Translations under genes and position numbers: made by a program
Part shown: piece after piece, positions 3,648 through 60,165 of the stretch
How positions within the stretch are numbered: position 1 is the stretch's first letter
Layout of the letters: each line of letters begins with the position of its first letter
Notes under the pieces: generated by a model
What the model was told of the DNA's origin: nothing
What the model saw: only the letters and a program-made list of their open reading frames with translations
Databases searched by the model: none
NCBI GenBank assembly: GCA_965649765.1
Contig: OZ287759.1
Span: 24,614,001 to 24,678,000 of the forward strand
Length of the DNA: 64,000 nucleotides
Source of the DNA: Bispira polyomma
Taxonomy: Eukaryota
Reading direction: 5' to 3'

Positions 3648-4607
3648 ATGGCACCTCGGGCCACATATGATTGTAGGGCTTGTAAAACAACTCATAGAAA
3701 GCCAATTAATGACAATTGTCCATTTGTTAATGACTCTGGGACTAATGAAGAAAGTGACACTTCTAGTATGTCGATTAATCTGCGCATATTGGAAGAGCTA
3801 AAGGGTTTAAGTGGACGAATGTCGTCCATTGAGAAACGTGTGGAGCAGACAGAGAACAGTCAAATTGCTAAAAGTGTTGCGGCTAACGCTGCTTCAACGG
3901 CTCCTGGAACCCTTCCTGTAACTATGGCCACAGGAACATACAGTCAACTGTTTCTGCTGAAGTTCCCGCGGCGACGTCTGAGCTGGGATAAATGAAAAAG
4001 GTAATTTTAAGTCGCAAAGAGGCGGCACTGAGACCGTTTGGGTAAAACACCAGGTTGCCTGGCCTCAGAACCATATTCTAGGGGGTACTACAAAAACTCG
4101 TACCACGTATGATAGCCTCTCTATGGCCCAATGGGTTCTGTTCTATAGTTAGAGATGAAAGCAATGTCGAATTAAAAAACGCTGTGTTAGAGTATGCCCA
4201 AGACCTCATGGAAGACTGTAACGACTTTTCTTGGACAGGGCTAAAGCTAGTCACGCAGTATTGTTATGTCGTATGGAGGAAGGAAAAGTTTCCTGGGATG
4301 AGACAAGTAAAATTGACAGAATTAGGAGGGCTCATGCTCAGAAAGTAGTTAACAATGGTCATTCCACATTTCCACATTTACAAATTCTGGTAGGGTTCAC
4401 AAGGGAAATGACAAGGGAATCCCTTGTAGGTACTTCCAGAAAGGTTCATGCCCACACAATGTGGACCATGAAACAAAAGGGCAGATGTACTTGCACACGT
4501 GTGCTACTTGCTTAAGTTTTGGTAAATCCTTTCCCCATGCATCAAAAGACTGCAACCGAAATAAGACTAGTAGATTTAGTGACCAAACTGGTTCAAAAAA
4601 CGAGTAA
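3648..4607 (+). pseudogene. gag-like ORF1 of Ngaro A (frameshifted)
   Basis: N-terminal CRACKTTHRKPINDNC, a coiled-coil-like segment, KSQRGG...WPQN, AKASHAVLL and a C-terminal Cys/His finger ending SKNE* at 4607. Confidence 0.8.
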
Positions 4608-4629
4608 GGCACTGCAGTACAGCAGTGCC
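4595..4629 (+). promoter_or_regulatory. Predicted -1 ribosomal frameshift signal
   Basis: A_AAA_AAC (4595-4601), a 6-nt spacer, then GGCACTGC-agtaca-GCAGTGCC (4608-4629). The -1 frame is the pol frame. Confidence 0.8.
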
Positions 4630-7011
4630 CAAAAGTTATACTAACAAAGATGATTGTAATTCTCTTGTACATATCAAACATAGAAATCAGTATTGTAGTA
4701 GTCGTACTGTTTATAATGTGAATATGATTAACCAAAGTGATAACTGGAGGGCTAACTGGGCTCGGTTTGCAAACAAATCCTATGCCCAAGTAGTAAAGCA
4801 AAATAGGGGTACTGAAGGTCAAAAGTATTCTTGTAAAAGTATCACAAAAAATGCCCATCCCTCCAATTGTCGCTCGGGTATCAACAACCAAGTGTTTACA
4901 CATGTTTCTGTAAATAATGTACACAGTTTCAGGAAATCTCATGCAGGCGCGAAAAACAAATGTCACACCCCAAAAAGAGGTGTGAATGTCCAAAACACTT
5001 CTCACTTAAATGTACAGTTTCAAAACAATGGCCAGAGTCGCACCTCTGGTGTGACAACATGCGACAAGGTAATCTCTAGCAAAATGTGTGAAAATGTCCA
5101 AAAAACTTCTCACTCAAATGCACAGTTTAAAAACAATGGCCAGAGTCGCACCTCTGGCATGAAACCATGTGACAAGGTAATCTCTAGAGAAAGGTGTGAA
5201 ACAAAGTGCGAAAATAGATTTGTACCCTTACAACATCTCAATGAAGATAACGGCACCTACTATTCAAATGACAAAATGGTTTCTGATAACAATGTCCCTA
5301 GTAGTCAATGTGAGGACAAGTATGAATTGCAACTCCAAGTGAAAAGAAAACACAGGGAGGTCATTGCTAAAGCAGAAAACAATCCCCTTTTCAAAAAATG
5401 GAACAGCCAAAAAAAAGAAAAATTTGGCTTTATTCCTCTAGGAAACCTTAAAATGCCAAATGAGATTAAAGTCGGTTCACACTTAGGCGATCCCCTTGAA
5501 TTACACAAAGCAGTTAAAAAGCAAAACTGTCCAAACTTTCTGGGCGCCCAGATACCAGTGGAATCGGAACTTCACGTCAACGAATGGGAAAAATTGTTAG
5601 ATAATTACTGGGACAGTCAACTCGTGCACCTCATCAAATTTGGCTTTCCCTTAGATTTTAATAGAGCTTGTCCCCTAGAAAATAAGGGAGCAAACCACAG
5701 CTCTGCTACTATGTTTGAAAACGACGTTAAGACATATCTTAAAGAGGAAAAAGAATTTGGAGCAATTATTGGTCCGTTTAAAGAACCCCCATTATCTGAA
5801 TTGCATATCTCTCCATTCATGACTAGGCTGAAACCAGATGCTAAGCACAGTAGAGTTATAATTGATTTAAGTTGCCCACAAGGGCAAGCAGTCAACTCGA
5901 CTATAAATAGAGATCAGTACTTAGACACTCCTTTTATTCTCACGCTTCCTACAGTAGATGACATTACTCGGAATATTGTTAAACTAGATAAAGGTGCATT
6001 ATTATACAAGTTAAACATTAGTCGTGCTTTTAGGCATGTAAAGATCGACCCAGCCGACTATGACCTACTAGGGCTTCAACTTAAAGAGTACTACATTGAT
6101 ACTTGCCTGTCATTTGGCTATCCCCACGGCAGTGCTATATTTCAAAGACTCAGTGACGGAATTTGTTTTATGATGACGTCACAAGGTTAGGACGTAGTAA
6201 ACTACATAGATGACGTCATAGGTTATGGTCTTCCAAACACAATCGGAGATTCATTTGAAAAATTAAAAGAACTTTTCCAAAAGTTAGGCTTTGCCATCAG
6301 TCAGAAGAAAGTAGTTCCGCCAAGCACTAAGGTAGTCTGTTTAGGGGTTTTAGTCAACACAGAGGACTTTACTGTCTCCATACCGGACAGTAAACTTGCT
6401 GAGATTAAACAAGTTTGTCTCTCATGGACTAAAAAAAAAGCATGCACCAGAAGACAGCTTCAATCGCTACTGGGCTCGCTATTATTTTTCACGAAATGTT
6501 TTCAAATCTTACAAGTTTTAATGGTATGGCCTTCTTTGAACACAAACCAGTCACAGATCAAGTTCACCTAGACGCGTGTCTGCAAGGTCTGGGTGCTTGC
6601 TGCAATAATGAGGTTTATACCAAAGAAATCCCACTTGGCTATAGAAATTATACCACAGTCCATCTTGAAATGATCAATATATTAGTCGCAATCAGAGTTT
6701 GGAATAATAAATGGGCTGGACGCAAATTGCTTATACATTGTGATAATCAAGCGGTAGTATCTATTCTAAATTCAGGCAAGACACAGGATCTTACTCTGGC
6801 AGCAATGACCAGAAATATTTTTATGGAGGCTGCAAAAGCAGACATAGAATTAAGAACGGTACACATCTTAGGCAAAAGAAATGTCACAGCAGACTTACTC
6901 TCTAGGTGGGCTATCACCCCTCATAATAAAGAAAAATTAAAAAGCTTAATGCAAAATCCGACTTGGATACAGGTCAGTGATGACCTTTTAGAAGTAAATT
7001 GGTCAATCTAG
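4601..7011 (+). pseudogene. pol (RT + RNase H) of Ngaro A
   Basis: LIKFGFPLDF, ISPFMTR, RVIIDLS, SRAFRHVKIDP, then NYIDDV after an in-frame TAG at 6188-6190. RNase H motifs DACLQGLG, HLEMINI, CDNQAVV and ADLLSR lie in 6442-7011. Confidence 0.92.
4984..5200 (+). repeat. In-frame 108-bp tandem duplication in the pol N-terminal linker
   Basis: NVQNTSHLNVQFQNNGQSRTSGVTTCDKVIS followed by NVQKTSHSNAQFKNNGQSRTSGMKPCDKVIS. Confidence 0.9.
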
Positions 7012-7033
7012 TTTTTTAAAAAAAAATTTTCAG

Positions 7034-8024
7034 GCTCTCCAACCTGGGTGTCAAAGCTTGCAGAAAGAGCAGCCAATAGAGCATATCAGGCATTTCGTCC
7101 TTCTACACATAAAGCTTACACAGCCATGTTTAGAGTATTCTTAGCCTACTGCTGCTTTGCTAATATCTCAGTCTATAACATCACACCCCCGTCACTCCTT
7201 GCCTTCTTAGAAGTGCTAGTAGTAAACAATACTTCACACAGTTCAATAGCAAACTACCTCGCTGCCATTAAGGCCACCATGTCATTGTATGGGCTCAAAA
7301 TTACAGCCTTTGCAGACCAGAGGATAAAATATTTTCAAAAAGCCCTGGTCCTACACAAGCCATTTAAAGCCAAAATAAATGGCATTATTGATGTTAACCA
7401 ATTGCAAAACATAGCTCTAATCTGCGACTCCATGTATATGGGTCAAATTTATAAAGCAGCTTATCTGCTTGCCTTTTTCTCTTTCCTTAGAATTTCGAAC
7501 TTAGTGCCACATTCACAATCTACTTACTCACCACTGCACCAGTTAGCCAGGGCTGACGTTATTTTCGCCCCTCCAGGCGCCAACATAATTATAAAATGGA
7601 CAAAACTTTACAAGCTAGAAACGCAATAAAAGTCATCGAAATTCCCATATTGCAAAACAAAATTATTTGCCCGGTAACAGCTCTAAAAAACTTGCTGGCT
7701 ATTACTCCTGGCCATAACAATACCCCATTGTTCCAAATTAAAAGTGATACTCAATGGATCACCCTTACTGACACCAAATTACGCAGAAATCTTAAGGACA
7801 TCTTGAACAGACTAAATAAATCACAAGCTAACATCACTTTCCATACGTTTAGGCGTTCTGGGGCGACAATGGCCTTTAAGGGCAATGTGCCCCTCCAAGA
7901 CATTCAAAGCCAGGGCATCTGGTCCTCCGAGTGTGTCTGGAGATATATCACTCAGGACCATGCGGCCTCTGATCAGGTAGCCCTGGCCCTTCAATCCCTA
8001 CTCAACCCTAGTCCTACTTTTTAG
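7034..8024 (+). pseudogene. Tyrosine recombinase of Ngaro A (one frameshift near 7600-7630)
   Basis: Catalytic motifs FLRISNL, CPV, HTFRRSGAT, GIWSS and VWRY. Confidence 0.92.
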
Positions 8025-11000
8025 TTGGGCCTTGGTGGTTATTGTCTTTTTATATATCATTTATATGCTATAATTTTTAAACTTTATTATATACTTAAGG
8101 CCACCTTATAGGCAAAACATCTGGTAACCTTAACTAGATAGATGTAAGGCTAAGGCCAGCAGAAATTGTGTAACTTGTTAAGTTTACCTTAAATTTTGGT
8201 AAACTTAAACTTAAACTTTAAATTACGTTAACCTTAAACTCTTAATCAAAAAATTATTTTAATGTGGCCTCAATTATTTTCAAAAATAAATTTTAACCAA
8301 TTGTAAATGAATGTGTAGTAATAGATTAAATATATATATCCCAACTGCTAGTCTTTCTTACAAGGTCAACTTTCAAAACTCAAGGTCAGGGCACTGAAGA
8401 AACTTTGCCTCTCGTGATGTTTGATGACAGAAGAAAAAAACTCTTTTTATTTTCCCACTCTTTATTTAATGAAAGACAAATGGTAACAAAAATTTAAAAT
8501 GGAAATATAAACTAAATATTCAGGTGGTTTACTACTAATTTAGTAGTAATTGTATGGTAAATCACACACATTGGGACTAGGGGATGATCTGACACACCCT
8601 TTATTATCAGCTGGGGTGGAGTGCTGTCCACTCCATTGAGAATATTGTCCCAACCTGATTATTACACAATAAAAACAAATTATCCTGGTCTCTACATTTC
8701 TTACCCTGCTCTTAATGTACACTGCCATCCAAGAAGTACTGATCTCTATAAAAGTAAAATAATGTAAACACTAATGTACAATACCAGGCTTATGACAATG
8801 CTAGAGAGCAGAATAATATCAATGTCCCAAACTCAACCTTTGTTACCTGAACGTCTATTATCCAATTGTTAGATTTTATGGACATATTTCCACTCTCCAA
8901 AGTTTATTTTTTTATAGTGTGTTGTACAGAAATACACTTTTTCTGGTAAACTTATTACATTTTACTCTCTAAGCATATTTAGATAATAAGATTCCATTCT
9001 AGGCTTAAATAATATCCCATGATTGGAAGTTTAAACATTTTTATTATAGAGGCAATCTTTTCTAAGATTGTATCAATTTATTTGAGATCTTAGCCCCTTT
9101 CTAGTTCTAGTCACCCAGACAAATGATGGCTTCCTTATCTAGTGAACGGAATTGCCAGTGAGGTAAAGCTATTGAAATTAATGAGGTTGAAGTAGTTTAC
9201 CCACTCTATGTCATCTTGCATGTTTAACCTTAATTATATGCACTGTAATAATGTCCATGGCTACTAATTAATCATAAATTTTGAAACAATAAACATATAT
9301 TTGTTTGTATTTCTGTGAAATAAAAAATACAAATTAGAAAACAAGCTTAAAATGACTGCTGTAAACAAGAACAGTCCATCAAAGTAAAAACAGTAAGATT
9401 AAAATGTGACACCAGTCTAGTGAAAATTACTCCAAACAAGAATAGTTTTAAATGAGATTAAGGTTGCTACAACATCTGCTGTTCTTGTGTTTTATTATAT
9501 TGTCTCTGTGTAGTGTTTGGTGTCAGAATGGGCTGCCTTATGGCCTGTGACATAATCCAGAGGCTACACTTGTATTAGTGTAGGACTAATGAATTGACAA
9601 CCTCTGGTGTGGCTTGAGATTATGATATGGTGTTATTATTACAGCTTGTTAGACTTCATATTACACATATTTATAATCACTTGTTTAATCCCAGACTCTA
9701 GATCATATATATACTGGCATGTGTTTGGGGTGTGTTCTAATATATTTTTTAGTTTAAATATTGTTTATTTGCAGAAATGTGAGTCTGTGTTACAGTGCAG
9801 AATATGAAAGGCTATATAATGTCAACAAAACTCACTGTAGTACAAATGTCTTTTTTTTTATCATATTTCACTAGATACTCCATCTCTACTTTTCTTGAGA
9901 TGATAACATGATGCTTTTGCAAAGTAGTTTATGATTGTAGATTAAATTTCAGAGTTGTGATTTAGTTAAAGTCAATCAGTGTCAAAGAAGTTTTACTAGT
10001 AAGTGGGACCAATAAATACATTTGGATGCTAGTTAGAGTCTTATATTACTGCTGTAATAACAAGACTGTTATATATCAGAAATAATTATGTTGAAATATA
10101 AACGACGGCTAGTTAAACTGACAATACGTTGAAATATGTATGGTGGCTAGTCAAACTGACAATATGTCATTTATTGAGGCAAACATACATTAAAGTAATG
10201 TGGAACTTCTTTCCGCAAATCATACTTCTTGAAACAAGCATTTGTGGAATTTCCAAAATTATAAGTAACTTGAGCTATATGTGAGTTTGAGTTTGAGTTT
10301 TAGGTTTAAACTAACTAAAACAAACTTCCGAAGTAGTAGAATACCTCAGAAAGCTTAGAGTTTTATATAGACCCAATTTTTCTTACTTAATATCTCAGTA
10401 TCGATTCCAGGCCTCTTCCTTAGTGCAACATCCCTGACAATAAGGCTTTCAGTCGTAATACTAATACATTGCTAATTGGAGAACACATATTCCTATGAAA
10501 CAGAATTGGCTGTCATCTTGCCCAACAATGTTGTCCCCCAATGATTCTTATAGTGTGACCGAAAAAATTGATCAGGGCACCTTCTGATCACCTAATCTGA
10601 TTTCCAACCACGAATAAGACCAGGGTACCTTCTAATCATCAGACCAACTATCTAGGTAGAAGTTGAAGCAGAAATCTTCTAATTACTGGACTAACTTTCT
10701 AGAGAGTAGACCCCAGGAGATCCGACAGCACTACACTAAAACTCTAATGGTGTTTCAAATATTATTAGAGAAAAACAAACCAAAAATATTTGAATCTAAA
10801 ACAGTCAAAACTATCTTATTATTTATAATTATTCAATCCAATATTTTGTATATTAACCTCATGATTCATATTTATTTATAATTACTTTTTCTTTTAGTAT
10901 AGATATTTCTATTGTCATTTATACATAACTTAAACTCAGGTCCTACTGGATTCACATTAGGATATGTATGTCATGCATGGCGCTGTGAGAAATGTGTAAC

Positions 11001-11574
11001 ATAACAGGTTTGTTTAAGTTAAAAAACACACACACACAAATATAATGTAGAATGTAGCATGGTTCAATGTATAGTTGCATGACCTTTGCGAGAGATGGCG
11101 TAGTCTAACATAATGATACATAAATGCTTGTGAATGTAATACGCAAAGGAACCATGCTACATCGTATGCGTGTCAAAATTTTGAACAGTTCAAAAATTAA
11201 AATTTTGTGTGCACATCTTCCATGCCAGGTTATGTACATCCACGATCAACATTTTAAAGGACACAAAACTAATGCAAATTCCATGCAAACTTAACTTTTA
11301 CACGAGATCTAGCGTGTCCCACTTTTTCTTAATATCAACTGCCATGATTTATAATAGCAGGTGAAAACTGTTATTTATCATGTTGACAGTAACATCCGAC
11401 TTTTTAATTTCACAGACTAGAAAACATTGACAATATGACATAGTATCTCCAGTCAAGTGAAGAGACGTCAGACATATTTCAAAATTTGCAAACAAAAACT
11501 ACATAATAATTGACAATTCATGCATGATGGTTAATTACACCATGTTGTTCCATCAATTTCAGGTTGTTATTGCT

Positions 11575-13631: not shown

Positions 13632-13727
13632 ATATTATTATTATTTATTATTATTATTATGATTTTTAATGCGCTTTATTGATGCTAGGCATCTTCTAAA
13701 GCGCAACAGCAGAATCATTAGTCCAAT
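13632..13727 (-). mobile_element. L2 3' UTR/tail fragment next to a (TA)n tract
   Basis: Near-identical reverse complement of 2857-2938. Confidence 0.88.
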
Positions 13728-15559: not shown

Positions 15560-15810
15560 ACCAGCAGTCCTTTTGCTTTTATTGAGCATTAATTGAGCTA
15601 GTTACTCTCCAGAAGGGAAATTGATGGTCATTCACTTGAAATAGAGACGGAGAAAACAACATTGTCTGCTTGTCAAATTGAATCCTCGTATGGTATTCCT
15701 CAAAATCAAGTCTTACGCTCTTAAGCTCACATATTGGAGCACAATATACATATATAGTATATACCTATGTGGGCTTTACTTTTGAGCTATGTGTGAGTTT
15801 TAGCTATAGT
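15560..15810 (+). repeat. Dispersed non-autonomous repeat (MITE-like family)
   Basis: Reverse-complement homologs at ~36725-37075 and 37940-38030 (core attaattgagct.gttactctcca...gggaaat). Confidence 0.6.
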
Positions 15811-18348: not shown

Positions 18349-18999
18349 GTTGTTCAGGACAATGTTTCATTTCCCCAAGTAACAGGTCAAAGGTCAGAGA
18401 TCAAGAACACAGGTATGTATACACACAGGATGCGGTAAATTATTTATTGTTAGACTAAGATGTTAAACTACTATGTACAAGGCAACTTAAGGTCACCATA
18501 ACTAATTTTTATATTACAAGAAGTAAGTGACTTAAGGCCACCTACAATAAATATTTTTTTTAGATTATTAATTTTGATAAGGTCACCTTACCTTTAAGGA
18601 AAAGTCATTGTCCATATTACATTTATACGGCCCTGTGGGCAGTTAAGCAAAGGTGACCTTAGAGTCCAAATGAAGTTACGATAACCTGTGAATTTATGGT
18701 AAAGTTTAACTAGAACTGCATTATAGGCAGAGATATATTTAACGGTGTTAATAATAGCACTGTAAGCATAGCCTCAAGAGTGAGACAATTACAGTTAAGT
18801 TACTGAGTTTATGACTATCAGGTTACGTAATTACAGTTAAGTTACTAGCAAGTTACGTCATTTATTAAAGTGAGCTTTAGAAGTATCTACATATACTTTA
18901 TGAGTAATAAGTGAATTACCTGAGTAAGTTACAGCTGTAAAATCATTTACATATGACAATCAGCCAAACCCCAAAAGGTAGGGTAGGAGAAAGAAGGCT

Positions 19000-19990
19000 T
19001 AAGGAAGGGGGGAGACTGTAAGTTGATGCTTAAAGGTGTCAGCCACTTGGTTGCCGGCATCAACAGTGTCGGTGACAAACCGTCACATGCAATCCGAGGT
19101 CCAGGTGCCATGGTTTTGTATATTTTGAATGTTAACATTATTATTGAAGGCAAATGTGGCACCTGAATGACGGAAAGCGTGTAGGGTAAGTCCAGACTCT
19201 TTAAGGTTCAGTCTGGCAAGAATATCTGTGAAATGATGATGTACCTTAGTGTCAGTTAGAGGTACCCACTTCTGGCTGACTTTTATTTGGAATAAGAGAA
19301 GGTTAACACCAGAAGGTGAAATAGCCATAATGTCCTCAAGTGACCTCAGAGGGCAAAGGGGGGAGCCTATTAGACGGATGATGATGATTATTTTGATTTG
19401 TTTATTATTCTGCATGGTCTTTGACCATTGAATGAATAGTACAGCCTTATCAGGATGAAACATAACGTCCCCACATGCTAGATGTTTTAAAGGAGAAAAA
19501 AGGTGGACAGCATGGGGAACAAGGTTGGAAAGGCGTAAGAAAGAAAAGAAGCTAACTAGGTATACAGCTTGAAACACCAGTCCCACGTAAGTGATGAGTG
19601 AAAGTCTCACAATTTTACCCAAAGTGGAAATATCTATAATTTTTTTCAGTTTAACCTGGAGAGGGGCCGACATCTGGACAGCCTTTTTACAGTAAGCAAT
19701 CCGTGGGTCACTGAAGGCCAGAATGGGGACATTATGGACAATAGACTTAGCCTTGATAGCAGAAAGATACTTGGCCATCAAAGCAGGTTTTACAGAATTA
19801 AAATTTAGCAATTTTAAGAAAGCAAGGAGGTGAAACACAGTCACCTGATCCACTGGAAGATCCATGAAGGCAGCATAGGCATGATATACTCTATACATTG
19901 ATTTGTAGGACCTGTCAGTAGATCTACAGAAAGCCAGGTGTAGCTTTGCAGTGGCATGTCTGTATAGTGACTGCTGAACCGGGTTACTCT
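19000..19990 (-). pseudogene. Tyrosine recombinase of Ngaro B
   Basis: FLRLSNL, WSKT.Q, LCPL, HAFRHSGAT and HGTWTSD in ORF 19083-19898; the C-terminus is frameshifted. Confidence 0.9.
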
Positions 19991-20029
19991 CTGTAAAAAT
20001 AAAACCACAAGGAAGACACTAATGCTATG

Positions 20030-22461
20030 TTATTTATATATTTTCGTTTACTTTAAGGTGATCATTTGTAACAGAGCACCACTGAATTGGAACTGCAAGT
20101 TCATGTAAGCGAATATAATTCTGCTGAGAGTTGGTCCATTGTGACAGTAGATCAGCAGTGGAGTTGTCTTCACCTAGATATGTATTACTTTCAGCTCCAC
20201 ATCATATTGGCTTGCTGTCATGAAAATATTTCTAGAGTATAGAGCTAGAGTCTCATCTCATGTTCTACCATGGGTGAGAACACTGGGTGAGTACTGCACG
20301 ACCTCTCTATTGCACACCCCACAACCTGAGAGCTACCAATATGTTAAACATTTCTAGGGAAGCAATATTTAGTTGTTGCATTTCAAAAGGTATAGATAGG
20401 GTGTATACTTAATTGTCATAAATACCTCCCATACCAGTAAGGCAGGCATCTAATTTTATAATAGCAGTAATGGGTTTGTGTTGAAAAAAGGAAACCCCAT
20501 TGAATTTGGTAAGAAAGGTTCTAAACCAATTGAGATCTTTGTTGAATTCAGGGGTAATTTTGATTTATTTATTTTTGTGGTTGCTTCTGAGGAGGTGGAG
20601 CATCCTATAAAGGAAAAACCTGTAGTATTTCACACATTTTGAAATATATAAGAGAGAACCTAGTAGGCACTGTAGTTCACGTTTAGTACAGAATTTTTTG
20701 TTTGCCCAGCTATCACAAGTGGTGTGGATATTTAGTAATTTCTCCTCTGGTATGGAGGTGGTGAACTCCACAGTGTCTATAACAATACCCAGACAGGTAA
20801 CCTGTGTAGCAGGGGGAACCAGTTTGTTCTTACTCAAAGTCAGACCGAGTTCGGTTAATAGAGCCTGCAATCTATTGTAGGTTTTGTAGATTTTTGTAGG
20901 TACTGAGCAGCAAAGAAGATTGTCGATGTAGTTCGTAATCTGATGACCTTCACCTTGCATTATATCCCTTATTCCATCCGAAATTCGCTGGAAAATGGCC
21001 GAACCGTCCTTATAACCAAACGGGAGCGAGCCAACTATGTAATAACCATCCCAGTACAGTCCCAGCAAATTAATATCTCTCGGATCTATAGTCACATGTC
21101 TAAAAGTGCGACTTATATCAGCTTTAAAGATTAAGGAACCTTTTCCCATGACAAGTACCTGCTCAGTGATTGTATCAATAGAAGGATAAGTGAGTATAAA
21201 TTACTTTCCTAAGTATGTGGTAGGACACACTGCTACATTAACCGAATGTCCGAGGGGCCATCTTAAGTCAATGATAACTCGTCGGTTAATCGAACTCGAC
21301 TTGTCCCTGGTCATGAAAGAAGTACTTTATCAATTAGGGGAATTGCAAATGGGCCATACGTGGCTCCAAAGTTAAATTCCTCTTTTAAATAGTAAGTCAC
21401 ATGATCTGGATACTGAGTAGCTGAAGAATGGTTATCGAGTTCAGAGTGAAAGACATGTTCCTCGTCACAATCAAGGGGGGAAACCAAATTTTATGAGTAA
21501 AGGGAGTTCCCAATCCCAATACCCAGTCAAGTATTTGTCCCACTCTAGGGCATTCAACTGTGTAATCACGGGTATTTGTAAACCCCTATAATTGGACCGC
21601 CCATCTTGTTTTAGTCGCTTATGTAAAGCGAACACGTCAATAGTAACCTTGTTATGTGATTCATTTTGAATGGGTACACCCCACAAGTGGAATAAAACCA
21701 AATTTCCCGTTATTTTGAATATCCCACAACTTGTCGGTATTGCAGTCTTTGGCACTATTTAGACGCTGTCTTTTTTTGGGACATTTGTACACTTTCAATG
21801 CATATTTGTCGTCCCAAGTATTCACTTGAGTGTTGTACGTTTTTGCTTATTTGGAGGCTTTTGACAAGATTTGCCATCAACCACGGGGGCAGAGACAATA
21901 GTTTCCGCGGCCTGTACACTAGCGGAGTCTAACAATGCAAATCTATTGTAAACGGGTAATTGAATTGTTGACACCTTGTGCCAGGTTAGTTTGTTTTACA
22001 TTCGGGGACAAAGAATGCCCCCCTTTTGGGGGAGGGGCTTTTTGACACCTATTGTCTGCCCCGGCTTTGGCAATTTGTGACACATTGTTAGTCCTGCTAA
22101 CAATAGAGCATAAATTGGATCTGTTGGCACAGAAGTTTCCATTGTGCGACCTGGGAGAATGTAAAGGCTTATTTACACGTTTTAGTTTGGCACCCTTTGT
22201 TTTACTGAAAGCTCTCGTTTTTACTTCCAAAGAGAAAGCCTGCCTCTCAATATTCCCAACATCACTCACAGGACCTTCTTGTTTTATTTTGTCAGAAACA
22301 TCTTTTCCCAATACCACGTCCCTGTAAGACCTTTTTGACACACTTGATACATGATTAAAACACAGATTAAAATCAGTAAATGCAGAATTATACACAACTT
22401 TAGAGTAGACTTTTTGTAACCTTTTTCTCTCTGCCACTGCATTATTGCAGTGGCCCCTTAG
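20030..22461 (-). pseudogene. pol (RT + RNase H) of Ngaro B, multiply disrupted
   Basis: ORFs 21943-22437, 21471-21755 and 20565-21149 (KADISRTFRH, LPFG, YIDN, CLGIVID). Confidence 0.88.
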
Positions 22462-22467
22462 TTTTTT
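22433..22467 (-). promoter_or_regulatory. Predicted -1 ribosomal frameshift signal
   Basis: Minus strand: A_AAA_AAC, TAAGGG spacer, GCCACTGCA-ataa-TGCAGTGGC. The -1 frame is the pol frame. Confidence 0.8.
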
Positions 22468-23799
22468 ACATTCTTTTTAGTATACAGTTTTGTCTGGTGG
22501 CCCCCCTCACAATTCTCACAGACATGCTTGAATAACTGACCCAAAGTACGATGACTTGCATTAAACTTGCAGGTGCCTTCTTGGAAGAACCTGCAGTTCA
22601 CGGCTTGGATTTTAAGCTGTATCTTACTCTTAGAGGCACCATTTGACTTATTAGAACCAGAGCCACTGGCACCTGAAGTAAGGTGGCGTTGGGCATGAGC
22701 CCGACATATGCGGTCAATCTTATCAACGTCGGTCCGTTTAGACGATCAAGTTCCATATTTGTTAAGAGAATTGCGTGTGAGGCCTTGGCTGCTTCCCATG
22801 AAAAATCTAGGGCATCATCCATAAGATTAGCCAAATACTTGAGCATAGCTTCTCGCACGGCCGGGACCTTTTGTTCTTGCACACAACGTATGAAACCAGA
22901 TGTAAATTGGACCAGAGATAAATCATCATAGGTGGGTCTGGTCTTTATGGTTCCAGATAAAATGAAATTCTGGGGCCAGTCTACAGCCCTTTTTATAGGT
23001 GCATCAACTCCCCCACGTTGAGATTTAATTTTACCTCCTGCCCAGTCATTTAATTGTTGCAACTGCAGTAGGCGCTGATCCACCTGAGACTAAAGGTTTT
23101 CATTTGATCTAAGAAAATCTAAGGAGGAGACTACTGCCTCGACGGCTGGTTCAGAAACACTACTAGCAACATTTTTACTTGGATCACTAGCAACACTATT
23201 GGCGATAATGGTACTAGCAGTACTGGCTACAGTAACATTTGACAAATTAGTACGTGCCTTATTGGCGCTGGGTGAGCACAGCGTTGCCTCTGTAACCTGC
23301 ACACATTGGTTCATGCTATCCATCTTCTCATTGAGAGACTGAAGCTGCTGTAAGATCAAACTGGACACTGTATCCGACATCTCAGGGGTAGTAGCATGGC
23401 CAACCGTGGTTATTTCATCGGCGACGCCATGCCCCAGCATATGACAACATTTTTTTCCCACTGGGCGTTCATGTTTGCCCATACATGCACTGCATTAAAA
23501 CTCCTTCTTAGACATCATGCACTTTGAATTAAAATCAGTTAAAAACAATATGTAGGGTAGTAAAAGCCCCACTTGTAAAACACTCTTGTTAGGTGTATTC
23601 ACAAAGTATTATTGATGGCGCTTGCTTGGCACCAAAGCCTTTTATATCTGCCCCCTGACCCCTGATGGCCTAATTGCAACCCCCAGTGACCTGGTACCAG
23701 AAATGAGGGGGCTGACACCAAGGCATCAGCCCACCAATTTCAATACCGGAGGAATGACAACTTAATTATTATCTGTAATAACTTCATCATTAAATTAAT

Positions 23800-50500: not shown

Positions 50501-52654
50501 ATAAGTCACATTCACAAAAAAAAAAGAAAAGATATTCATCTTCTACTTTATCTTTACACCAGAAACATTTTCTGTCTTTAACAGGAGTATTTGTATATCT
50601 ACTGGTTTCAATAGCAAGCGGTAATATCCCCATACGTAATTGGGCAGTTAAACTTCTTTGATATTTTGACATATTCCATTTTATGTAATTTTCAATCTGA
50701 AAATTTGCATTTAAATTTCTTGTAAACTCTTAATTTAGGCTTACAGCTTAAGTTAACTCTCCATGTAGATTCAATATGGTCTTTTATTTGGCCTTTCATA
50801 TGATTTATATCTAACTTAGTATCTTGAGTAATATTATTAATTCCAAATAGAGACATTATATTTCTAAATTTGCACACCCAATTGAAACAGGTAGACTTGT
50901 CACATTGCATTTCATATAATAATTGTTTTGGAATTCTATTGTTATCTAACTGTATTAAGTGATTCCAAAAACGATACATATTTAAATATTTTTGATACTT
51001 GATTGGAATCCATGCAGCCTCACCCATAACAGCAGTTATTGAGGCCTTATTATGAACACCAAGATAATATCTCATTATACGTAATTGTAGCTTGTTACCA
51101 TATTTATCATCACAATAACCCCACACAGCTGAGTTGTAATTCGTTATTGGGAAAACACATGTCTCGCATAATTTTTCAAATATATTGAAAACCACACATT
51201 TAATTTGTTTTATCTTACATACTATTCCACCAAATGCTCTTCCAGCTGCTTCAGACATAATTTGTTCACACTTTTTGAAGTTCAGATGGTCATCCAGTAA
51301 AACACCTAAGTATTTATAACAGTTAACTACTTCTATATGATTTTTGCCTATGACAAATTTATTCTTTGTTATCTTTTAGGAACAGTGTGTCTACGTATTG
51401 AAGAAAATTACATGAGTGACAGGTTCTAGATAGATTGAGTCACACACATACACACACAAACAACTGCTGGCATTTCATAATGGCTTCATGTAATTATTTA
51501 AATGTAGACTTTGTCAGTACTGATACATTGCAAATGCGCAAATAGAAAACCCATCATATGAGGAAGTTAACAGCCTGATCATGGATATCGTAAAGATGGG
51601 TTGGTTGCTCATTCGGCAAACACTAGTATAAAAGGATTAATCAGCAAACGAAAATACCTGTTTAAGAAAATAGAGACATATGTAACCTAGGGCCAGTGAT
51701 TTACTCTGCCATCTTGATTGCAGATTGACTGAGGGTGAATAAAGCTCTGTGAAACCAGATATTTAACTTTTACCACAGTGTGTTTTCTGACGAAAAATTT
51801 AAACATCAAGCTCAATGTTAAGAAAAGACTAAAACATCTAAAGCTGCCTCACATCTTAACCATATACTAAAGTATTGTCACATAGAATAACCTTGATCGT
51901 GTCCTTGGACCTTAAAACTCAGTCATTGGTGGCAAGGGTAGTGCTAAGCGCCAAACCTTGGTTTTACCACAATACATAAAAATGCTGCCTTGTTAAGCTT
52001 TAGACTGGTTCATATTTGAAAAAATTCATGATGTACTTGTGGGTTACACAATCCCTCGACCTTAACCCTTAGTCCTGACCCCCAACCCACCCTAACCTGT
52101 GTTCCAACTTACCAAAAGTACCAGAGTTTATAGAATGGAACAAGATCTTCATCAAGGTCCTCACTAGTACAACATCCGGTCTGACAGCACACGTGTCCCA
52201 CGGAGCACCTGTAACTTTCACTTCCTGTTGCATTTCCCACTAAGTAGTTATTTCTCACACCACAGACTGTTGCTGATATCTATATATAGATCGGTTAATG
52301 ACAGAGATAAACTTTCTAATATTATATAAATTGGGTTGGATGTCAATTGTGCATGGAGAAAATCTCCCAGTTTACACAACTACGAGTCCTGCTATATAGG
52401 TTTATATCAGAGTTGTTTTGGGGGGATCTTACTGAATAGAAAATTGTACTCTACTTGTGGTGTATTAGATTTTTAAATATAACTTAGACTTTTATCTGTA
52501 GTGAATCTATAACAACTTTCACAAATAAAAATTAGTTTGTAGATTTGTTTTCAACAAAGTCAGTCTGCACGAAAAACAAATATATAGTACCAAATATTGA
52601 CAAATAAATATACCTATAACACATATATGTCATATACCTGTGAAATGTGCCTTC
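47574..52654 (-). CDS. WBP1/VOPP1-family single-pass membrane protein (5' exon(s) not located)
   Basis: Exons 52654-52638, 52208-52113, 49681-49545, 48916-48763 and 47736-47574 are all GT-AG and phase-compatible. They join to EGTFHRCSVGHVCCQTGCCTSEDLDEDLVPFYKLWYFWLSLVFVSAICFGVATVYCTKRHKK...QEPYRFPAYGH...CVQTDS*. C-CC-CC followed by LWYFW and a TM is the WBP1/VOPP1 signature. The 48763 donor is the least certain junction. Confidence 0.85.
48145..48225 (-). mobile_element. SINE fragment
   Basis: gggtttatgttgctttcaac...catataacaacggcc...aatggtggaggaaacc recurs at ~41760, 49780-49860 and 62000-62855. A B-box-like GGTTCGATTC lies on the minus strand at ~61945-61955. Confidence 0.6.
49040..49315. 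repeat. Intronic ~31-bp minisatellite, ~9 copies
   Basis: Unit approximately tcaccagatctaacaaatgtctgccccac. Confidence 0.85.
50147..51380 (-). mobile_element. 5'-truncated LINE with C-terminal CCHC-type finger (RTE-X/Daphne-like), inside a WBP1/VOPP1-like intron
   Basis: YKYLGVLLDDHLNF, AQLRMGILPLAIETSRY...RKCFWCKDKVEDEY..CECDLY, AATAAA and an (ATTGA)n tail. Confidence 0.85.
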
Positions 52655-54059
52655 CTGAGAAATAATAGATGATTATCCATTTATTCACCATCACAAATAT
52701 TTATCAATATATTTTATAGCAACAATGCTATATAGATATAGTTATATTGTCTCTTAATATGTATGCATATTAGGTCGTTTTATTCTTCAGTGTGTTCACA
52801 TCCATATTATTTTGCAAATAGCATTTTTACCTCTTCCAGAATTTTTTTTTTTTTTTTTTTTTTGAAACAGTAGTTGTAGTTGAAAAATCTTACAGTCCCT
52901 TAGTTAATTATATAATAATATCAGCTATCTCTGAACGTTCGCTGCTGTAACTCAAGTACACTTGTATAGACTTGTGATTTGGTTCAACAACATTGTATAA
53001 AGTCAATAATAAACCCAAGAGGGCTGACAATGATGAAATATTCAGGAAGGAAATATGACCCTATGGTATAAGGTAGATTCACTGATGAAGTCATAACATA
53101 TCAATTAATCATGGATAGATTGACTGGTTTGTTGACTTATGCAGTATGTGACATTGTTTTAATAATGGATTTTAACAAATGGAACAAGTTTATTATTCGG
53201 AGTGGCTGTCATTTCAATTCGTTTTACAATAATTGTTATATGTTCATCAATAACACAGTTCAGTGTGACATATTTTGTAACACTATCATTTTACAGCATA
53301 CAATAGAATAAATGCTACGGCACCCTTCACCATGTGAAGCGTGAAAGGGAGTTGCGCCCCTTGCCGCCGGATGCTACAGGGTGGGTTAATACTCAATCTG
53401 GTTGCTTGCTGATCAACCAGCTGTTAACCCCCCTAAAAATGCATTATTATTATTATTATTAATATATAATTAAATACATTTACTCTGATATATATCTGAA
53501 TCCTTCTGTGCAAATCTAATATTGTGGCATTCATGGTCAATAACTTTGAAAAAACAGGTAGAAATGTGCTAAATAATATTACATTACTCTTTAGAATCAA
53601 CTATAATATGTATACGATATATGGCTACAAAAATTAAGGGTTGTAAGGGCTATGTATGACAGCAAATTAAATGGAAATTATCTGTTGCAATTAACTGTAA
53701 AATGAAGATATTACATAGACACAGTTGTCATAAATTGTTACTACTAGAGAAAAAAATGTGTCATCAGCATACACGATTGTTTTTTTCTGACAAAACATTA
53801 TGAAATAAAAAGTACAAATTAATTAGTTAAAAATATAAACCCCAACGTGTATAACTATAACACTAAACAAGCATTCAGTGACCGATGAATTGGTCACACA
53901 CTCGGTTTGTAGGTTTAGAGTAATTTTTGTAGTGGGTTAGCTGCAAGAGGTGGTGATAAAAGAAGAATAGTGAGTGTGTTGGTGTCATATACAGTGCTTT
54001 ATAGAACATTTTAGCTGACAAAGTCATTGACTTATTCCCATGAGTGTGCATGTGCATCA

Positions 54060-54720
54060 AGTGCTTCGTCTCTGAAACTACAAGTGCTGCAGACTTCCTG
54101 ATTTTTTACAAGTACCTTGGGGCCCCGAGAATGAAAATTTGTTTATGGCATCTAGATCAGGTTATCACCTGGGTCTACAAAAATTTTGATTTTTCCTTTT
54201 TCTCTTTCCTACAAACAGCACTTTCTTTGACAATCTTCTTCTCCAAAACCGCTACATAGATATTAAAACTCATTTTTAGGTGTTATGAATTTTTTAAACT
54301 TTTGAATTTTTGTATAGATTGCCGTGAAAACATAAACGTCTAATATCTCTCAAAAGGTGCGAGATTTAGACCTAATTTTTAGCCCAAGGGGCATCTTGTT
54401 CAGAGTCTAATTATAACAACTTTTCAGAAGTTCCCGATTTTGGCGACCATCTTGAATTTTCGTAAATTTTCTGGAAACATCAGTTATCTCAGAAACGGTG
54501 CAAGATAGAGCGATTTTGGCCTCATTTTCAGCTGACAGGTCATCTGGTTCAGGATCCATGTAAACTTTTTAGAAATTTTATGATTTTTGCAGCCATCCTA
54601 AATTGTCTTTTTAGGAAACGTCTGATATTTCAGAAACAATACGAGATAGAGAGATTTTAGCATAATTTTTTATCTCTTGGCTTGAAATCAAGGTCAAGTT
54701 GGGGTCATTATGTCATATCT
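54060..54720. repeat. Non-autonomous element with ~141-bp internal repeats
   Basis: tatctcagaaacggtgc.agataga-like motif at ~54343, 54485 and 54626. Confidence 0.6.
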
Positions 54721-56269
54721 TAAAAAGTATTACCGTTGTAAAATGAAATCTTCCCCCCATAAATACCCCCACTTGAAAATTCTCCCCCCATCTCTAGATG
54801 TCGTAGAAAGTTCAATGTATTTTTATTTATTACTTTTTTATTATGAAAATGTTTTGGATAAATCCTCATCACCTTTTGTTTCTAGAATACAGTATAATAA
54901 CAAAATTTTAAATTTGTAATAAATTGACTTTTTAAAAAACCTGTTTCAAACTAGAATATATTATCTTTAATATCATAAATGTTGTACCTGTAGGCCTTTT
55001 TTTCAGACAATTATATAAAATCAATTGCCTTGCTCACAATATTGTTAATTATTTAAATTTCTCAAGTACTCATTTTAACTTACACTTTCTCAGCTATTAC
55101 ATAGCATTATTATTTTTTGTAAAAAGTACCTCAAAGCATATTCATCTAGCTTCACGAATATGTAATCTGAATTTCTGTGTCACCTTATCCTATACTTACT
55201 GAGATATGAGCATTTGATCAATAACGTCCACTCTAAAAACATGCATTTTTAATAATTTTGGATATACCGTTCAAATCTAAAAATTTCATTTTATTTAAAT
55301 TAAATTTAAATTAAACTTTTCATAAGGTACATAATAACAGCTTTCTGGTGATACCAAAACAAAATCTTTATGCAAAGTATTAATTTTGATGCAGCCATTT
55401 CATCAATTAAATTTATCCGAAAAAATACATGATGTTTTGTGCGTATGTCAAAACTGCAGCCCTATAATCCAATCTCCATATTTTTGGTAAATATCCCTGT
55501 ACAGTCCAGTCAAAATAGTGATTGACTTAGGAATAATTGCAACAGAAAGTATTTTTGCAGCATACATTTACCAATAATAGCATATTAAAAATATAGGAAA
55601 ATTTAATAGATGTAAATCTATATATTTTCACATGCTTTAAAAAGGCTCATATTTTGACACAATGTACAACTGTGATGTAATAATTTTTAAGTGATGTCAT
55701 TATTATGTATTTATGCATCCAAATGACATTATAATCTGGTTTTGTGAGAGAGGGGAGTTATTTATGTTGTAATTATTCCTAGGTCAATAACTGTTTTGAT
55801 TGGACTATAATGTAGACATTCACATTCAAAACATAGTTACCCAGCCAGGATTCCACGATTGCCAGAATGTCAATTTCCTGATCAATAATAACATGATGCA
55901 AGAAAAGTGCCTTATTTTTCACCACGTGAAAAAGCAGCACTTTGCACTACTCTCATCACATCTGTGATCTGCTCCTGAAGGCTTATAGAAATCTGACATG
56001 TTGAACATATTCCCCCACAATAATTTTATACTAATTGTTTTCACATTCCCAAGGTGTAGAATTAATAATAAGCATCATATAAGGATATATAAGTTATCAG
56101 TTTTGTAACCGCACTTGTCAAGTGATCTAAGGTCACATCTAACATGGCAACCAAATTCATGTTGTAAGGTGCGAAAAGAATGCATGAAGCTGGGTAAGGT
56201 AGGGTAGGAAAAATTAGAGGGAAGACGGAACCAAGGAGGAGAGAGAACAGAAATATCACAGTCACTGCC

Positions 56270-59200
56270 GTCGGGCATGGCCAGTCAGTCGCGCAAATTT
56301 AGACTTTTACTGTACTCCCTGGTGACCAAGAGCATAGCGGTCGTTGGGGTTCAAAACTTTGTAATCAGCAATATAGGGCTATAGGGCCTATTCTTCACAT
56401 TGAAACCCAAAGTCTAAGAGTACACACGGCAAGGCGATAAAATTAATACACACCGCCATATTGAATTTTATGATACTTTATATATTTAACACAGTTTTTA
56501 GCTTAGTTTTTAAACATTTTACATTTTCAAGTGAACATTTGCGGGAATTATTAACTTTCACATACTGTGCGAGTCATGGAAACGCAAAATAAAAAGGATA
56601 ATGTTGTTTGTTCTCGATGCCCACAGCCGCACGAGAGACCAGTAGGTAATAGATGTACCAGGAATGTTTCCAGCGTTTCCAGCTTTCACAACATACTGGG
56701 AGTAATCAAAACTCCGCGAACAGAAATAGATGTTCTAGGAATGTTACCAGCATTTCCTCAGCAGAAGCAGAGACACACAAAGTCTTTTCACAGCATACTG
56801 TAAGTACACAAAGCGTGGCTACTTCCCCAGACAAATTGTCGCAATCTACAAATGAACTGTCGCATTCTACCAAAGACTCGTCTCATTTAACAAACGACTC
56901 GTCCTCTACCAATGACTTCCTCCAACAGTTTTGTTTACAACAGAAGCAAGTATTGGACACCATTTTGCAGTCTGTTCTTCTCTGCAGAAAGACGTGGACG
57001 TTTTAAAGGTCAAAGATCGGGACAGTGCTTCACAGGGTAATGTACAACTACTATCCTCACCTCAACAGTTACAAGCACAATCTTGTGATATACAGCAGCA
57101 GAAAACCACTACTTCAAAGCAAGGTAATGTGTCACAATTATTGCCTCTGTCGCAACAGTTATTATTACAGCAAAAAGTATTACCACAATCACAAGATCTA
57201 GTTTCACAGAAAAAGAGTGACATGGTTCACAGTACTCTGGCTGCTACAGTTATTCCACCCACCACTTTGGGTTTTGTAGATCCAACAGCACATCTAGGCC
57301 TGAACCAAGCGCTTCAGCCAAACCAGGTTGGTGACTTTCATCATGACATCTTGCCATCCACCGACGTTCTCAGGCAATCTGCTATTATTCAGAACGAGGT
57401 ATTGGCACGGTTGCAACAATATGAAACAGCAGCAGCACAGCAGTTGCTTCAGGGTAAGTCTCTGCTGAAGAGAAAGTCCGGGTGGTATAATGTTTCTGAC
57501 ACTTGCACATCTGATCCACTATTTAGATGGCCAAATGAGGGGTGTTTGTCGGGAATTAATAAGAAGAAAGTAGCGTATGACGACCTTACAGCAATTCAAT
57601 TTTCAGCCAGTCAGATAAAGAATATTTTGGAGGTTAAAAACACTCATGTAGCGCAAGCAATGCTTCGGCAGTTGGGTGATACTTTGAGGGATGCATCAAA
57701 CATATCTTGGCTGGTAGCTCGAGGTAGTTATGCAACCAACATGCATGACGTTGAGGAGGGTCGCCTCACGTGGTTGGATGAAACCAAATGGACCATAAAC
57801 AGATTGTCGTATTCGCAAGCTTTACTTTCTTCAAGTGCTACTAACAGCACAGCTCACACAGGAACTAAATCGAAAGTTCCTTGTCGCCATTACCAGCGCA
57901 ATCAGTGCAACCAAGACACTGACCACGAAAATGCCACTACGTTATTCAAACACATTTGTGCAAATTGCTTCCGCACCAGTCGCAGGGAGATGAAATGTTT
58001 TCGTTTACATGGTAAACCAGCAAATAGCAACACTCACACACAATAGGACGGGAGACGACTGACTGATAGCACAGCTTTAAAATTTTCTGAAATGCATGTT
58101 AGTCAAGGTAAACTAAAAGTTAATACTAGAAATGAACATAATTCAGATTTTAAATTAATTACTTTTGAAATGAACGATACTTTTAAATTTCTGAATAATG
58201 AAATTTTTTTTATTGTGAATGAGACAGATAACAAAAGTTCCAACAATGTCATCAGTAAAGACAGTAATGGTGTAATATGTTTTCGGACAAGCGATTATAC
58301 ACCAAGTGACAATATTGATCAAAAGGATGCAGGTAGGGGGAGTGTCACTACAGACAAACATACTCATTTAGAAGGTAATAATAGTAACATGTATACAACT
58401 GTTGAAATTAGTAATACAACTAGGGACTCATGTGATAAGAATGTTATGATTGAAAGTAAAGTTTTTTTTCAAATAAGAACATTTTGTGTGAAAAAACATT
58501 TGAGAACATTATGATGGAAGAAAAAATTGAGGACGTTATGGTTGAACGCATACAAATGTCAAATGAGAACATTATGAGTGAGCAAAAATTTAAGAACATT
58601 ATGATTGAACAAAAATTTTGTAATCAGGATGTACACTTGTATGTGGATAGTAACTTGAATGAGTCTGTTGTAGTGCATTCACCCTCAGTGTCCAATGTGG
58701 GTAAAGTTATTAAAAGAAATACCTTTAATGTTGATCAGCATATTAACACACATTTAACTTATGCTGATGTTTATATGAGTAGCAACAGCATGATGTATGG
58801 TAATGTATTCTATATTGTTGACAAGGAAATGATATTACAGGAAGCTCTTTGTTCTGTGGCCGATATTTGGCCAGTGTGTTATTTGTCTTCTATGACAGTA
58901 GTTATTATGACTGCTATTACTTCACCAAGAAAAGGTCAAAACAATAGCTTACAACACATCAACAACCGATAAACCCGGCAAAATTAGTACCTCCCAGTAA
59001 GAAAGTCTCCTGTATGGGAATCACTATAGATATCGAAAAGAGTACTTTAAGCATCGATGAAGACAAGCTGCTAGCTATACACAAAACATGTTTTGAATTT
59101 GAACATTTACCTACGATTAAAAAGAACAAATATCAATCTTTGCTCGGAAAGCTCCTTTACATTCATAAATGCATAAAGCATTTTAGAGATTTTCTCAACA

Positions 59201-60165
59201 GAATGCTTCAATTATTACGAGATCATACCAGTGCTAAACATGTTATATTGAATGAAGAATTTCGGAAAGATTTAAATTGGTTTAAAAGATTTTTAATTCA
59301 ATTTAATGGCACAACTTCGTTCGCGTATAAAGGTTTTGATCAACAGATTTTGTTGCAGGTAGACGCATGTTTGCAAGGCATAGGCGGTATCTCCTTGAAT
59401 GATGCATTTACTGCTCCAATACCCGATTGGTGCAGAGAAAACTTTTCTATCGTGCATTTCGAAATGTTGAGTGTTTTAGTGGCTTTTCGCTTATGGGCCC
59501 CAAAGTGGCGAGATAGTCATATTAGAATACAGTCAGATAATATTGCTGTGGTGTCAGTCATACGGTCGTCAAAAACTAGAGATTCAGTTTTGGCAGCTTG
59601 TTTAAGAAATTTGTGGCTAATTTGTGCTATATCAAATATTGAGATTACTATTGAACACCTTCCGGGAAAAAAGAATATTATTGCTGACACTTTGTCAAGA
59701 TGGCATGACTTAGGGGAACATACTAGTGACATTAAGACTTTACTATGTGATAGACTTAATATGTATGAAGTTTCTGTAGAGCACTTCATATTACAAAATG
59801 ACTTTTAATTGTAGGAACTTCAGACACGGTCAGACCTCTAGTAAGACAAGCTATGAAGAGATGGCAGACAATCATAGACCTCGGACAGGCAGACAGTACG
59901 ACAGTCAGATGAAGTTGTTTCTAGCCTTCACAGTTTGTTATAACATTCAGGACACCTTTGCTTTAGCAACAATATTATCTTTTTTGGAATATCTACATCA
60001 ATCTGGAATTTCATACAAGGTGGTCAACAATTATCTTGCAGCAATTAGATGTTATGAAAAGAAATATAACATCCAAGATTCTCAGTTATATGATCCAAGG
60101 ATTGTTTTTTTTCTAAAAGTCCCTGACGATTAATTCAATTTTTCAGCCTAAACCTAAAGGCATCT
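56270..60165 (+). mobile_element. Ngaro/DIRS-type YR retrotransposon, copy C (RT core deleted, YR 3'-truncated)
   Basis: gag 56576-58046 (CSRCPQPHERPVGNRC, WPNE, CRHYQRNQC..H..HICANC); RT C-terminus and RNase H 59014-59808 (DACLQGIG, HFEML, SDNIAVV, ADTLSR); YR N-terminal domain 59815-60133. Confidence 0.88.

What the first reader, a model, noticed from the sequence alone, without database searches (positions are those of the whole stretch)
4001..59814. Three divergent Ngaro elements conserve one phase-1 intron that would splice the Gag N-terminus onto the tyrosine recombinase
Seen in sequence: the YR frames of A and B have no ATG at their 5' end, and all three YR regions are preceded, at the end of pol, by an acceptor-like site (A tttt-cag|7034; B tttttacag|19990; C ttttaattgtag|59815). 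Each gag has a donor splitting the Gly codon at the equivalent position after the coiled-coil segment (A AAG|GTAATT, 4001; B GAG|GTAAAA, 23034; C AGG|GTAAGT, 57454). All donors are phase 1. The acceptors are phase 1 and in frame in A (G-SPTWVSKLAERA) and B (E-SNPVQQSLYRHA). In C, restoring one base gives LVRQAMKRMADNHRPRT, which aligns without gaps to LAERAANRAYQAFRPST of A. Inference: an env-like subgenomic mRNA removes the gag C-terminus and RT/RNase H and makes a Zn-motif/coiled-coil-YR fusion, possibly tethering the recombinase to the particle. I am not aware of this being an established expression route for Ngaro YR, but cannot check the literature.
Basis: partly seen in the sequence, partly recalled or inferred. 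Interest (0 to 1): 0.85.

Follow-up and report, generated by a model that had tools for sequence, protein, structure and literature searches.

The report
Ngaro recombinase likely made by splicing
A group of jumping genes in this animal genome keeps a matching pair of splice signals across dozens of distant families, so it likely makes its start-less DNA-inserting enzyme by cutting out the middle of its RNA and joining the enzyme to the front of its structural protein, rather than by the ribosome slip that a review proposed.

Summary
Observation confirmed and greatly extended. The three window elements are decayed Ngaro-type retrotransposons; donors, acceptors and phase are as reported. Among relatives in the same genome, a TTNYAG acceptor precedes the recombinase (YR) frame (AG 80 of 82) and G|GTA splits a gag glycine (72 of 76). 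That glycine's silent base is T in 25 of 25 families, whereas 23 other conserved four-fold columns reach at most 59%. A second set of 40 loci and metagenome relatives at 25-43% identity repeat the acceptor. Frameshifting, the published guess for Ngaro YR, fits badly: YR lies in all three frames relative to pol (25/20/13 of 58) with no conserved slippery site, while gag-pol has a clear recoding signal. The 30 codons before the usual first Met evolve as coding sequence. Best reading: a spliced mRNA encoding Gag N-terminus plus YR. No RNA junction could be seen (no RNA run listed), and tethering to the particle is untested. The scan noted a similar gag-to-YR intron earlier in a diatom-like genome (unchecked note).

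The parts
3126..8396 (+). Element A, decayed Ngaro-type retrotransposon, 3' repeats incomplete
   Evidence: 94-96% alignment to complete relative L065
3124..3336 (+). A1 split direct repeat of element A
   Evidence: 92% to the A2 repeat of L065
3642..3644 (+). Extra acceptor-like CAG 3 nt before the gag ATG (clade A only; role unknown)
3648..4000 (+). gag 5' part of A (predicted exon 1: Cys/His motif, coiled-coil helix, second helix; frameshifted in this copy)
4001..7033 (+). Predicted phase-1 intron of A (3033 nt), AAG|GTAATT ... TTTTCAG|
4595..4629 (+). gag-pol junction of A: slippery AAAAAAC, gag stop, GC-rich hairpin (predicted -1 frameshift)
4583..7011 (+). pol of A (RT, RNase H; broken by a stop and frameshift), no methyltransferase
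7034..8024 (+). Tyrosine recombinase frame of A (predicted exon 2; one frameshift near 7620)
   Evidence: Pfam SAM-like and PF00589 matches
18368..23736 (-). Element B, decayed Ngaro-type retrotransposon
   Evidence: 86-92% alignment to L073
23035..23515 (-). gag 5' part of B (predicted exon 1; two stops in this copy)
19991..23034 (-). Predicted phase-1 intron of B (3044 nt), GAG|GTAAAA ... TTTACAG|
22425..22467 (-). gag-pol junction of B: AAAAAAC, stop, hairpin
18999..19990 (-). Tyrosine recombinase frame of B (predicted exon 2; one internal stop near the end)
56256..60165 (+). Element C, decayed and truncated; about 1.2 kb of pol including RT deleted
   Evidence: 92-96% alignment to L092 with a gap
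56576..57453 (+). gag 5' part of C (predicted exon 1; frameshifted in this copy)
57454..59814 (+). Predicted phase-1 intron of C (2361 nt here, about 3.6 kb in complete relatives), AGG|GTAAGT ... TTGTAG|
58041..58049 (+). gag stop of C in CAA TAG GAC context with pol in the same frame (predicted readthrough)
59815..60130 (+). 5' part of the tyrosine recombinase of C (broken, truncated)

Best explanation
These Ngaro-type retrotransposons carry a conserved phase-1 donor in gag and a conserved phase-1 acceptor at the start of the recombinase frame, and likely make the recombinase from a spliced mRNA that joins the first 135-300 codons of Gag to it. The unspliced RNA would be the genome and the mRNA for Gag and Gag-Pol (by a predicted -1 frameshift in clades A and B, predicted stop readthrough in clade C). 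Part of the RNA would be spliced, dropping about 3-3.7 kb (Gag core, C-terminal Cys/His motifs, RT, RNase H) to give a roughly 460-630 residue protein: Cys/His motif, coiled-coil helix, second helix, then the complete YR. Shown: the sites, their conservation and phase, the absence of a conserved start codon or recoding signal for YR. Inferred: that splicing occurs. Speculative: that the retained Gag helices co-assemble the recombinase with Gag.
For: Acceptor placed by protein alignment alone: T at -6 and -5 in 82 of 82 loci, pyrimidine at -3 in 82 of 82, AG in 80 of 82; across 27 families the split codon encodes G, D, A or E and the codon before it S, V, L, T or A, so the constraint is on bases. 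Donor: 76 of 83 loci mapped, G|GTA intact in 72, +2 T and +3 A in 76 of 76. Silent T in 25 of 25 family representatives with Gly (26 of 27 families had a mapped donor) against 31-59% for 23 other conserved four-fold columns; the neighbouring KSQRGG silent sites vary freely. The site is the best or tied-best donor match in 10 of 11 gag frames. Families lacking A at -2 have G at +5 in 7 of 8, against 9 of 29 (Fisher p 0.012, not corrected for kinship). Second set of 40 loci: in-phase YAG in 28 of 30 anchored, G|GTA in 18 of 22 mapped. Metagenome relatives: the most pyrimidine-rich YAG is phase 1 in 15 of 20; L112 has AAG|GTAATT at the homologous Gly. Codons +1 to +30 differ 0.32/0.22/0.58 by codon position, like codons 31-60, with 0 of 27 stops, while the intron side shows no periodicity and stops in 19 of 27; Pfam SAM-like domain starts at residue 6. 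The donor falls just after a predicted helix, at the start of a low-confidence linker.
Against: No spliced RNA was observed. No spliced, re-inserted DNA copy was found: 0 of 30 young clade-B copies, none evident among 150 listed gag-N hits by open-frame length, no joint in three DNA-like runs. No gag-N/YR fusion protein among the best 120 of 510 YR homologs or the best 150 of 475 gag-N homologs, though these look like genomic gene calls. Donor decayed or changed in 4 of 76 and 4 of 22 loci, including a GC donor in L160. In the most distant metagenome elements the donor was only picked by consensus score (candidates in L118, L120 group; none clear in L119, L130). A Met at codon 31-32 is present in most families of this genome.
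Confidence: 0.85

Rival explanations
1. YR is made as a Pol-YR fusion by programmed ribosomal frameshifting or readthrough at the end of RNase H, the route that Poulter and Butler 2015 called probable for Ngaro elements.
For: Quoted in PMC13003380 (passage). In 25 of 58 copies YR overlaps pol in the -1 frame, as described there. The elements do use recoding at gag-pol. One copy, L106, has pol and YR in a single 1267-codon frame.
Against: YR is -1 in 25, 0 in 20 (behind a stop, no overlap) and +1 in 13 of 58 copies; near-identical copies L081, L082, L085, L086 have spacers of 80, 79, 81, 82 nt. A slippery heptamer lies before the pol stop in only 5 of 55 copies, at different places, against 41 of 43 at the clade A/B gag-pol junction. 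It explains neither splice-like site. L106's relatives L104 and L107 have a stop there.
Confidence: 0.04
2. The acceptor is real but is used by another exon or a trans-spliced leader (or YR starts at an internal ATG on its own transcript); the gag donor serves something else.
For: Met at codon 31-32 in most families, at 4 or 13 in some clade C families. Clade A has a second acceptor-like site just before the gag ATG with no obvious donor, which could point to leader trans-splicing or other upstream exons.
Against: Codons 1-30 are under coding constraint and hold invariant L9, T25, Y29; first Met is at codon 87 in L100/L101 and 225-228 in L109/L110; Met at that column in only 27 of 72 outside homologs. 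Both sites are phase 1, which a leader-only model does not predict. No second conserved partner for the donor was looked for systematically in pol, so this is not excluded.
Confidence: 0.08
3. The two motifs are conserved for protein or RNA-structure reasons (for example packaging) and are not spliced.
For: No RNA evidence; Gly is conserved at the donor.
Against: The invariant bases are silent or lie in a non-coding spacer of free length, match spliceosomal consensus at both ends, show -2/+5 compensation, and are confined to a few bases while adjacent silent sites vary.
Confidence: 0.03

Closest known systems
Ngaro retrotransposons (order DIRS; PMC3783388, PMC9210276, PMC8547959, PMC7192593, passages read)
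   Same: gag, RT/RNase H, YR in this order; A1...B1 A2 B2 split direct repeats; no methyltransferase; YR in the same or a shifted frame
   Different: Published account of YR expression is probable frameshifting (as quoted in PMC13003380); here a conserved intron skipping pol is inferred. No hydrolase ORF in this genome's complete copies (YR is followed directly by B1).
Subgenomic splicing in retroviruses and LTR retrotransposons: env mRNA, foamy virus pol mRNA, Drosophila copia spliced gag (recalled, not from a call)
   Same: Full-length RNA kept as genome while a spliced RNA expresses one gene
   Different: Here the spliced product would be the integration enzyme fused to half of Gag, with the donor in the middle of gag coding sequence
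PAT-like retrotransposons
   Same: Split direct repeats and YR
   Different: PAT-like elements carry a methylase after RNase H (PMC7192593); none is found here
Spliceosomal introns in YR retrotransposons mentioned by Goodwin and Poulter 2004 (recalled from the abstract; paper not held)
   Same: Introns inside YR retroelements
   Different: I could not check whether those introns include a gag-to-YR splice

Membership tests
Ngaro retrotransposons | Split direct repeats A1-ORFs-B1-A2-B2 | tested here: met
   Seen in complete relatives of all three clades, e.g. L039, L059, L062, L065, L081, L102, L109 at 96-100% repeat identity; the three window copies have lost part of their 3' repeats
Ngaro retrotransposons | ORF order gag, RT/RNase H, YR on one strand, YR starting near the end of RNase H | tested here: met
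Ngaro retrotransposons | No methyltransferase after RNase H | tested here: met
   No Dam/MT Pfam match in 5 of 5 long pol frames; pol ends about 40 codons after the last RNase H motif
Ngaro retrotransposons | Optional SGNH/GDSL hydrolase ORF after YR | tested here: inconclusive
   No such ORF in this genome's complete copies; present in metagenome relative L119 (weak Pfam match, E 0.0013), which also has the phase-1 acceptor. Feature is optional.
Ngaro retrotransposons | RT/RNase H phylogeny groups with named Ngaro elements | not testable with these tools
   No named reference sequences available; the YR tree has only unnamed rows
PAT-like retrotransposons | Methyltransferase domain after RNase H | tested here: not met
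DIRS1-like retrotransposons | Inverted terminal repeats with internal complementary region | tested here: not met
   Terminal repeats are direct
Spliceosomal (U2-type) intron | GT donor consensus and YAG acceptor, conserved beyond protein constraint, compatible phase | tested here: met
Spliceosomal (U2-type) intron | Removed from RNA | not testable with these tools
   No RNA holder listed

The most novel reading that the evidence does not exclude
Splicing of the Gag N-terminus onto the recombinase is the general, ancient way Ngaro retrotransposons express their integration enzyme, across animals and perhaps beyond; the textbook -1 overlap is only a by-product of a short spacer holding the acceptor, and the retained Cys/His motif and coiled coil act as a particle-targeting module for YR.
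Probability: 0.5. Interest if true: 0.82.

Novelty: new variant of a known kind. Interest (0 to 1): 0.72.

Why it matters
How tyrosine-recombinase retrotransposons express their recombinase is an open point; the review statement for Ngaro is a guess of frameshifting. This gives exact, testable junctions that contradict it, defines a predicted real N-terminus and size for the enzyme (annotated YR ORFs would be N-terminally incomplete), and implies a three-way expression plan in one small element: recoding for Pol, splicing for YR, intron retention for the genome. It would also matter for anyone trying to study Ngaro YR biochemically, and for host control of these elements through splicing.

Tried and rejected
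RNA search: no RNA holder listed; three runs of unrecorded kind, one study. Laid on intact copy L040 they give flat depth like DNA; at 85% likeness no donor-acceptor joint among 15 shown (90 more hidden), at 96% no joints at all; no evidence on expression either way. Spliced retro-copies: not found. Fusion proteins in protein collections: the one long YR homolog, P0094, is an RNase H-YR reading; gag-N queries found nothing in the 5.8-billion search and only genomic gag readings in the representative search. Gag fold search in PDB: no match at E 0.001; model pTM is 0.34. Complex prediction for Gag-N self-association was not available, and the protein atlas did not answer. The 5' UTR alignment lost three rows to a failed anchor and showed no conserved donor. 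Poulter and Butler 2015 and Goodwin and Poulter 2004 were not held. Frameshift, readthrough and internal-ATG routes were weighed and judged unlikely (see rivals).

Full report
Observation. Each donor reads G|GTA inside a gag glycine codon, and each acceptor ends in YAG just after the pol stop. The window lies on contig C12 of a 1.035-Gb assembly, by its repeat content an animal (inference). All three copies are decayed: A has a gag frameshift and broken pol, B has stops in gag, C lacks about 1.2 kb of pol and most of YR. Pfam finds RT, RNase H and phage-integrase domains.

What the elements are. Searches with the three YR frames each returned about 150 scored matches out of 5,800-9,900 candidates. 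I took 80 of them, chosen for long open YR frames and varied identity. Complete copies have split direct repeats A1-ORFs-B1-A2-B2, ORF order gag, pol, YR and no methyltransferase. By the definitions in PMC7192593 and PMC3783388 (passages read) this is the Ngaro plan; a phylogenetic test against named elements was not possible. The 81 sequences clustered fall into 27 families at 80% nucleotide identity and three clades about 35-50% identical to each other.

Acceptor. Placed by protein alignment alone, the site has T at -6 and -5 and a pyrimidine at -3 in 82 of 82 loci and AG in 80 of 82; one miss is an indel offset, one reads TGG; L073 was left out of that count and added by hand later. Across 27 families the split codon encodes G, D, A or E and the preceding in-frame triplet S, V, L, T or A, so bases, not residues, are held. 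On the intron side there is no codon periodicity and 19 of 27 representatives have a stop; codons +1 to +30 differ 0.32/0.22/0.58 by position with no stops, the same as codons 31-60.

Donor. It was mapped in 76 of 83 loci (63 by the downstream protein motif, 13 by DNA alignment, 7 not found). G|GTA is intact in 72; +2 T and +3 A are present in 76 of 76 although the next residue is N, K, T or I. In the 26 families with a donor, the silent base of the glycine is T in 25 of 25 with Gly, while 23 other conserved four-fold columns in gag and YR reach 31-59%. It is the best or tied-best donor match in 10 of 11 gag frames. Families without A at -2 mostly have G at +5 (7 of 8 against 9 of 29; p 0.012, kinship not corrected), as expected from U1 pairing (established knowledge). 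In an AlphaFold model of Gag (mean pLDDT 68, pTM 0.34) the donor codon, residue 135, follows helix 115-133 and opens a low-confidence linker before the helical core.

Second set and other organisms. Forty more loci were picked with distant queries; 8 gave no YR frame and 2 no anchor. Of 30 anchored, 19 have YAG at the predicted base, 9 one codon later in the same phase, 2 fail. Of 22 with the gag helix mapped, 18 have G|GTA; the others are GC, two single-base changes and one frameshifted copy. Some of these loci are close kin of family L063. In metagenome contigs at 25-43% YR identity the most pyrimidine-rich YAG near the YR start is phase 1 in 15 of 20 (several are copies of one family), some with a CTAAC branch-like motif. 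L112 has AAG|GTAATT at the homologous glycine; in more distant gags the donor is only a candidate or unclear. L119, which has a hydrolase ORF after YR, has the acceptor. Outside proteins carry the footprints: 30 of 32 YR homologs that extend far enough have a G-starting residue at the acceptor column, and 39 of 43 gag homologs have an A-starting residue after the glycine, against 205 of 481 for other glycines.

Rivals. The published guess for Ngaro is frameshifting in a small -1 overlap (Poulter and Butler 2015 as quoted in PMC13003380). Among 58 of 83 copies with a normal pol end, YR is -1 in 25, 0 in 20 and +1 in 13, and the spacer is 6-82 nt in all but one. A slippery heptamer precedes the pol stop in 5 of 55 copies at scattered places, whereas the gag-pol junction has A AAA AAC/T in 41 of 43 clade A/B copies, mostly with a hairpin, and a CAR TAG G context in 13 of 14 clade C copies. 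The shortest spacers give exactly the small -1 overlap that the review describes. An internal ATG is the better rival, since most families have Met at codon 31-32, but it is absent until codon 87 or 225-228 in three families, present in 27 of 72 outside homologs, and would cut off invariant residues and the start of the SAM-like domain.

What is missing. No RNA run was listed and the three runs laid behave like DNA and show no joint. No spliced retro-copy was seen in 30 young copies and no fusion protein in two protein collections. The lack of spliced copies would fit a packaging signal inside the intron (inference) but is also mild evidence against. Tethering to the particle was not tested.

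Literature. Eight full-text searches less one rejected and term searches in PMC6681497, PMC4157794, PMC4495291, PMC13003380 (also section 2.7), PMC8547959, PMC9341512, PMC9210276, PMC3783388, PMC3266345, PMC9940879, PMC7192593 and PMC12477816 (passages only, no supplements) found no report of a gag-to-YR splice. The two key Poulter papers were not held, and Repbase annotations could not be checked; from memory the 2004 paper mentions introns in YR retrotransposons, so prior notice cannot be excluded. Earlier notes of this scan describe a similar intron in a diatom-like genome and other spliced YR elements; they are unchecked and are not counted as support.

Verdict. A real, ancient pair of splice signals in Ngaro-type elements. 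A spliced Gag-N/YR mRNA is the likely route (about 0.85), a new variant of subgenomic splicing that contradicts the standing frameshift guess and is testable with one RNA data set.

Noticed in passing
window 4595-4629 (+), 22425-22467 (-), 58041-58049 (+) and relatives: Gag-pol recoding differs by clade: A AAA AAC plus a GCACTGC...GCAGTGC hairpin (predicted -1 frameshift) in clades A and B; in-frame CAR TAG GA context (predicted readthrough) in clade C.
   Followed up: partly
window 3635-3650 and clade A relatives: A second acceptor-like YAG lies 0-6 nt before the gag ATG in 26 of 31 clade A copies (20 by pattern, 6 more by eye) and was not matched in 15 clade B or 11 clade C copies; no conserved donor seen upstream. 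Could be a 5' UTR intron or a trans-splice site.
   Followed up: partly
L106 4121-7924 (oriented): One copy has pol and YR in a single 1267-codon frame because the pol stop is changed; its relatives keep the stop. Another 978-codon frame was listed at C5:16654271.
   Followed up: partly
L176-L205; L039/L040 family: Very young families with dozens of 98-100% identical copies; clade B insertions begin sharply at TGGTGGG with unrelated flanks. The genome holds thousands of YR candidates.
   Followed up: no
L039 8106-8832, L092 8320-8859 (oriented): A spacer of about 500-700 nt separates A2 from B2; the 3' region is far deeper in the laid runs than the ORFs, suggesting many short non-autonomous relatives.
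   Followed up: no
gag residues 45-76 (alignment A2): The first Gag helix has heptads and an R-h-x-x-h-E pattern that I recall as a trimer motif in LINE-1 ORF1p (recalled, untested); Gag has no Pfam or PDB fold match.
   Followed up: no
window 1701-2795 (+); 62225-64000: A LINE-type reverse transcriptase fragment directly upstream of element A, and a 937-bp tandem duplication at 98% identity at the window end.
   Followed up: no
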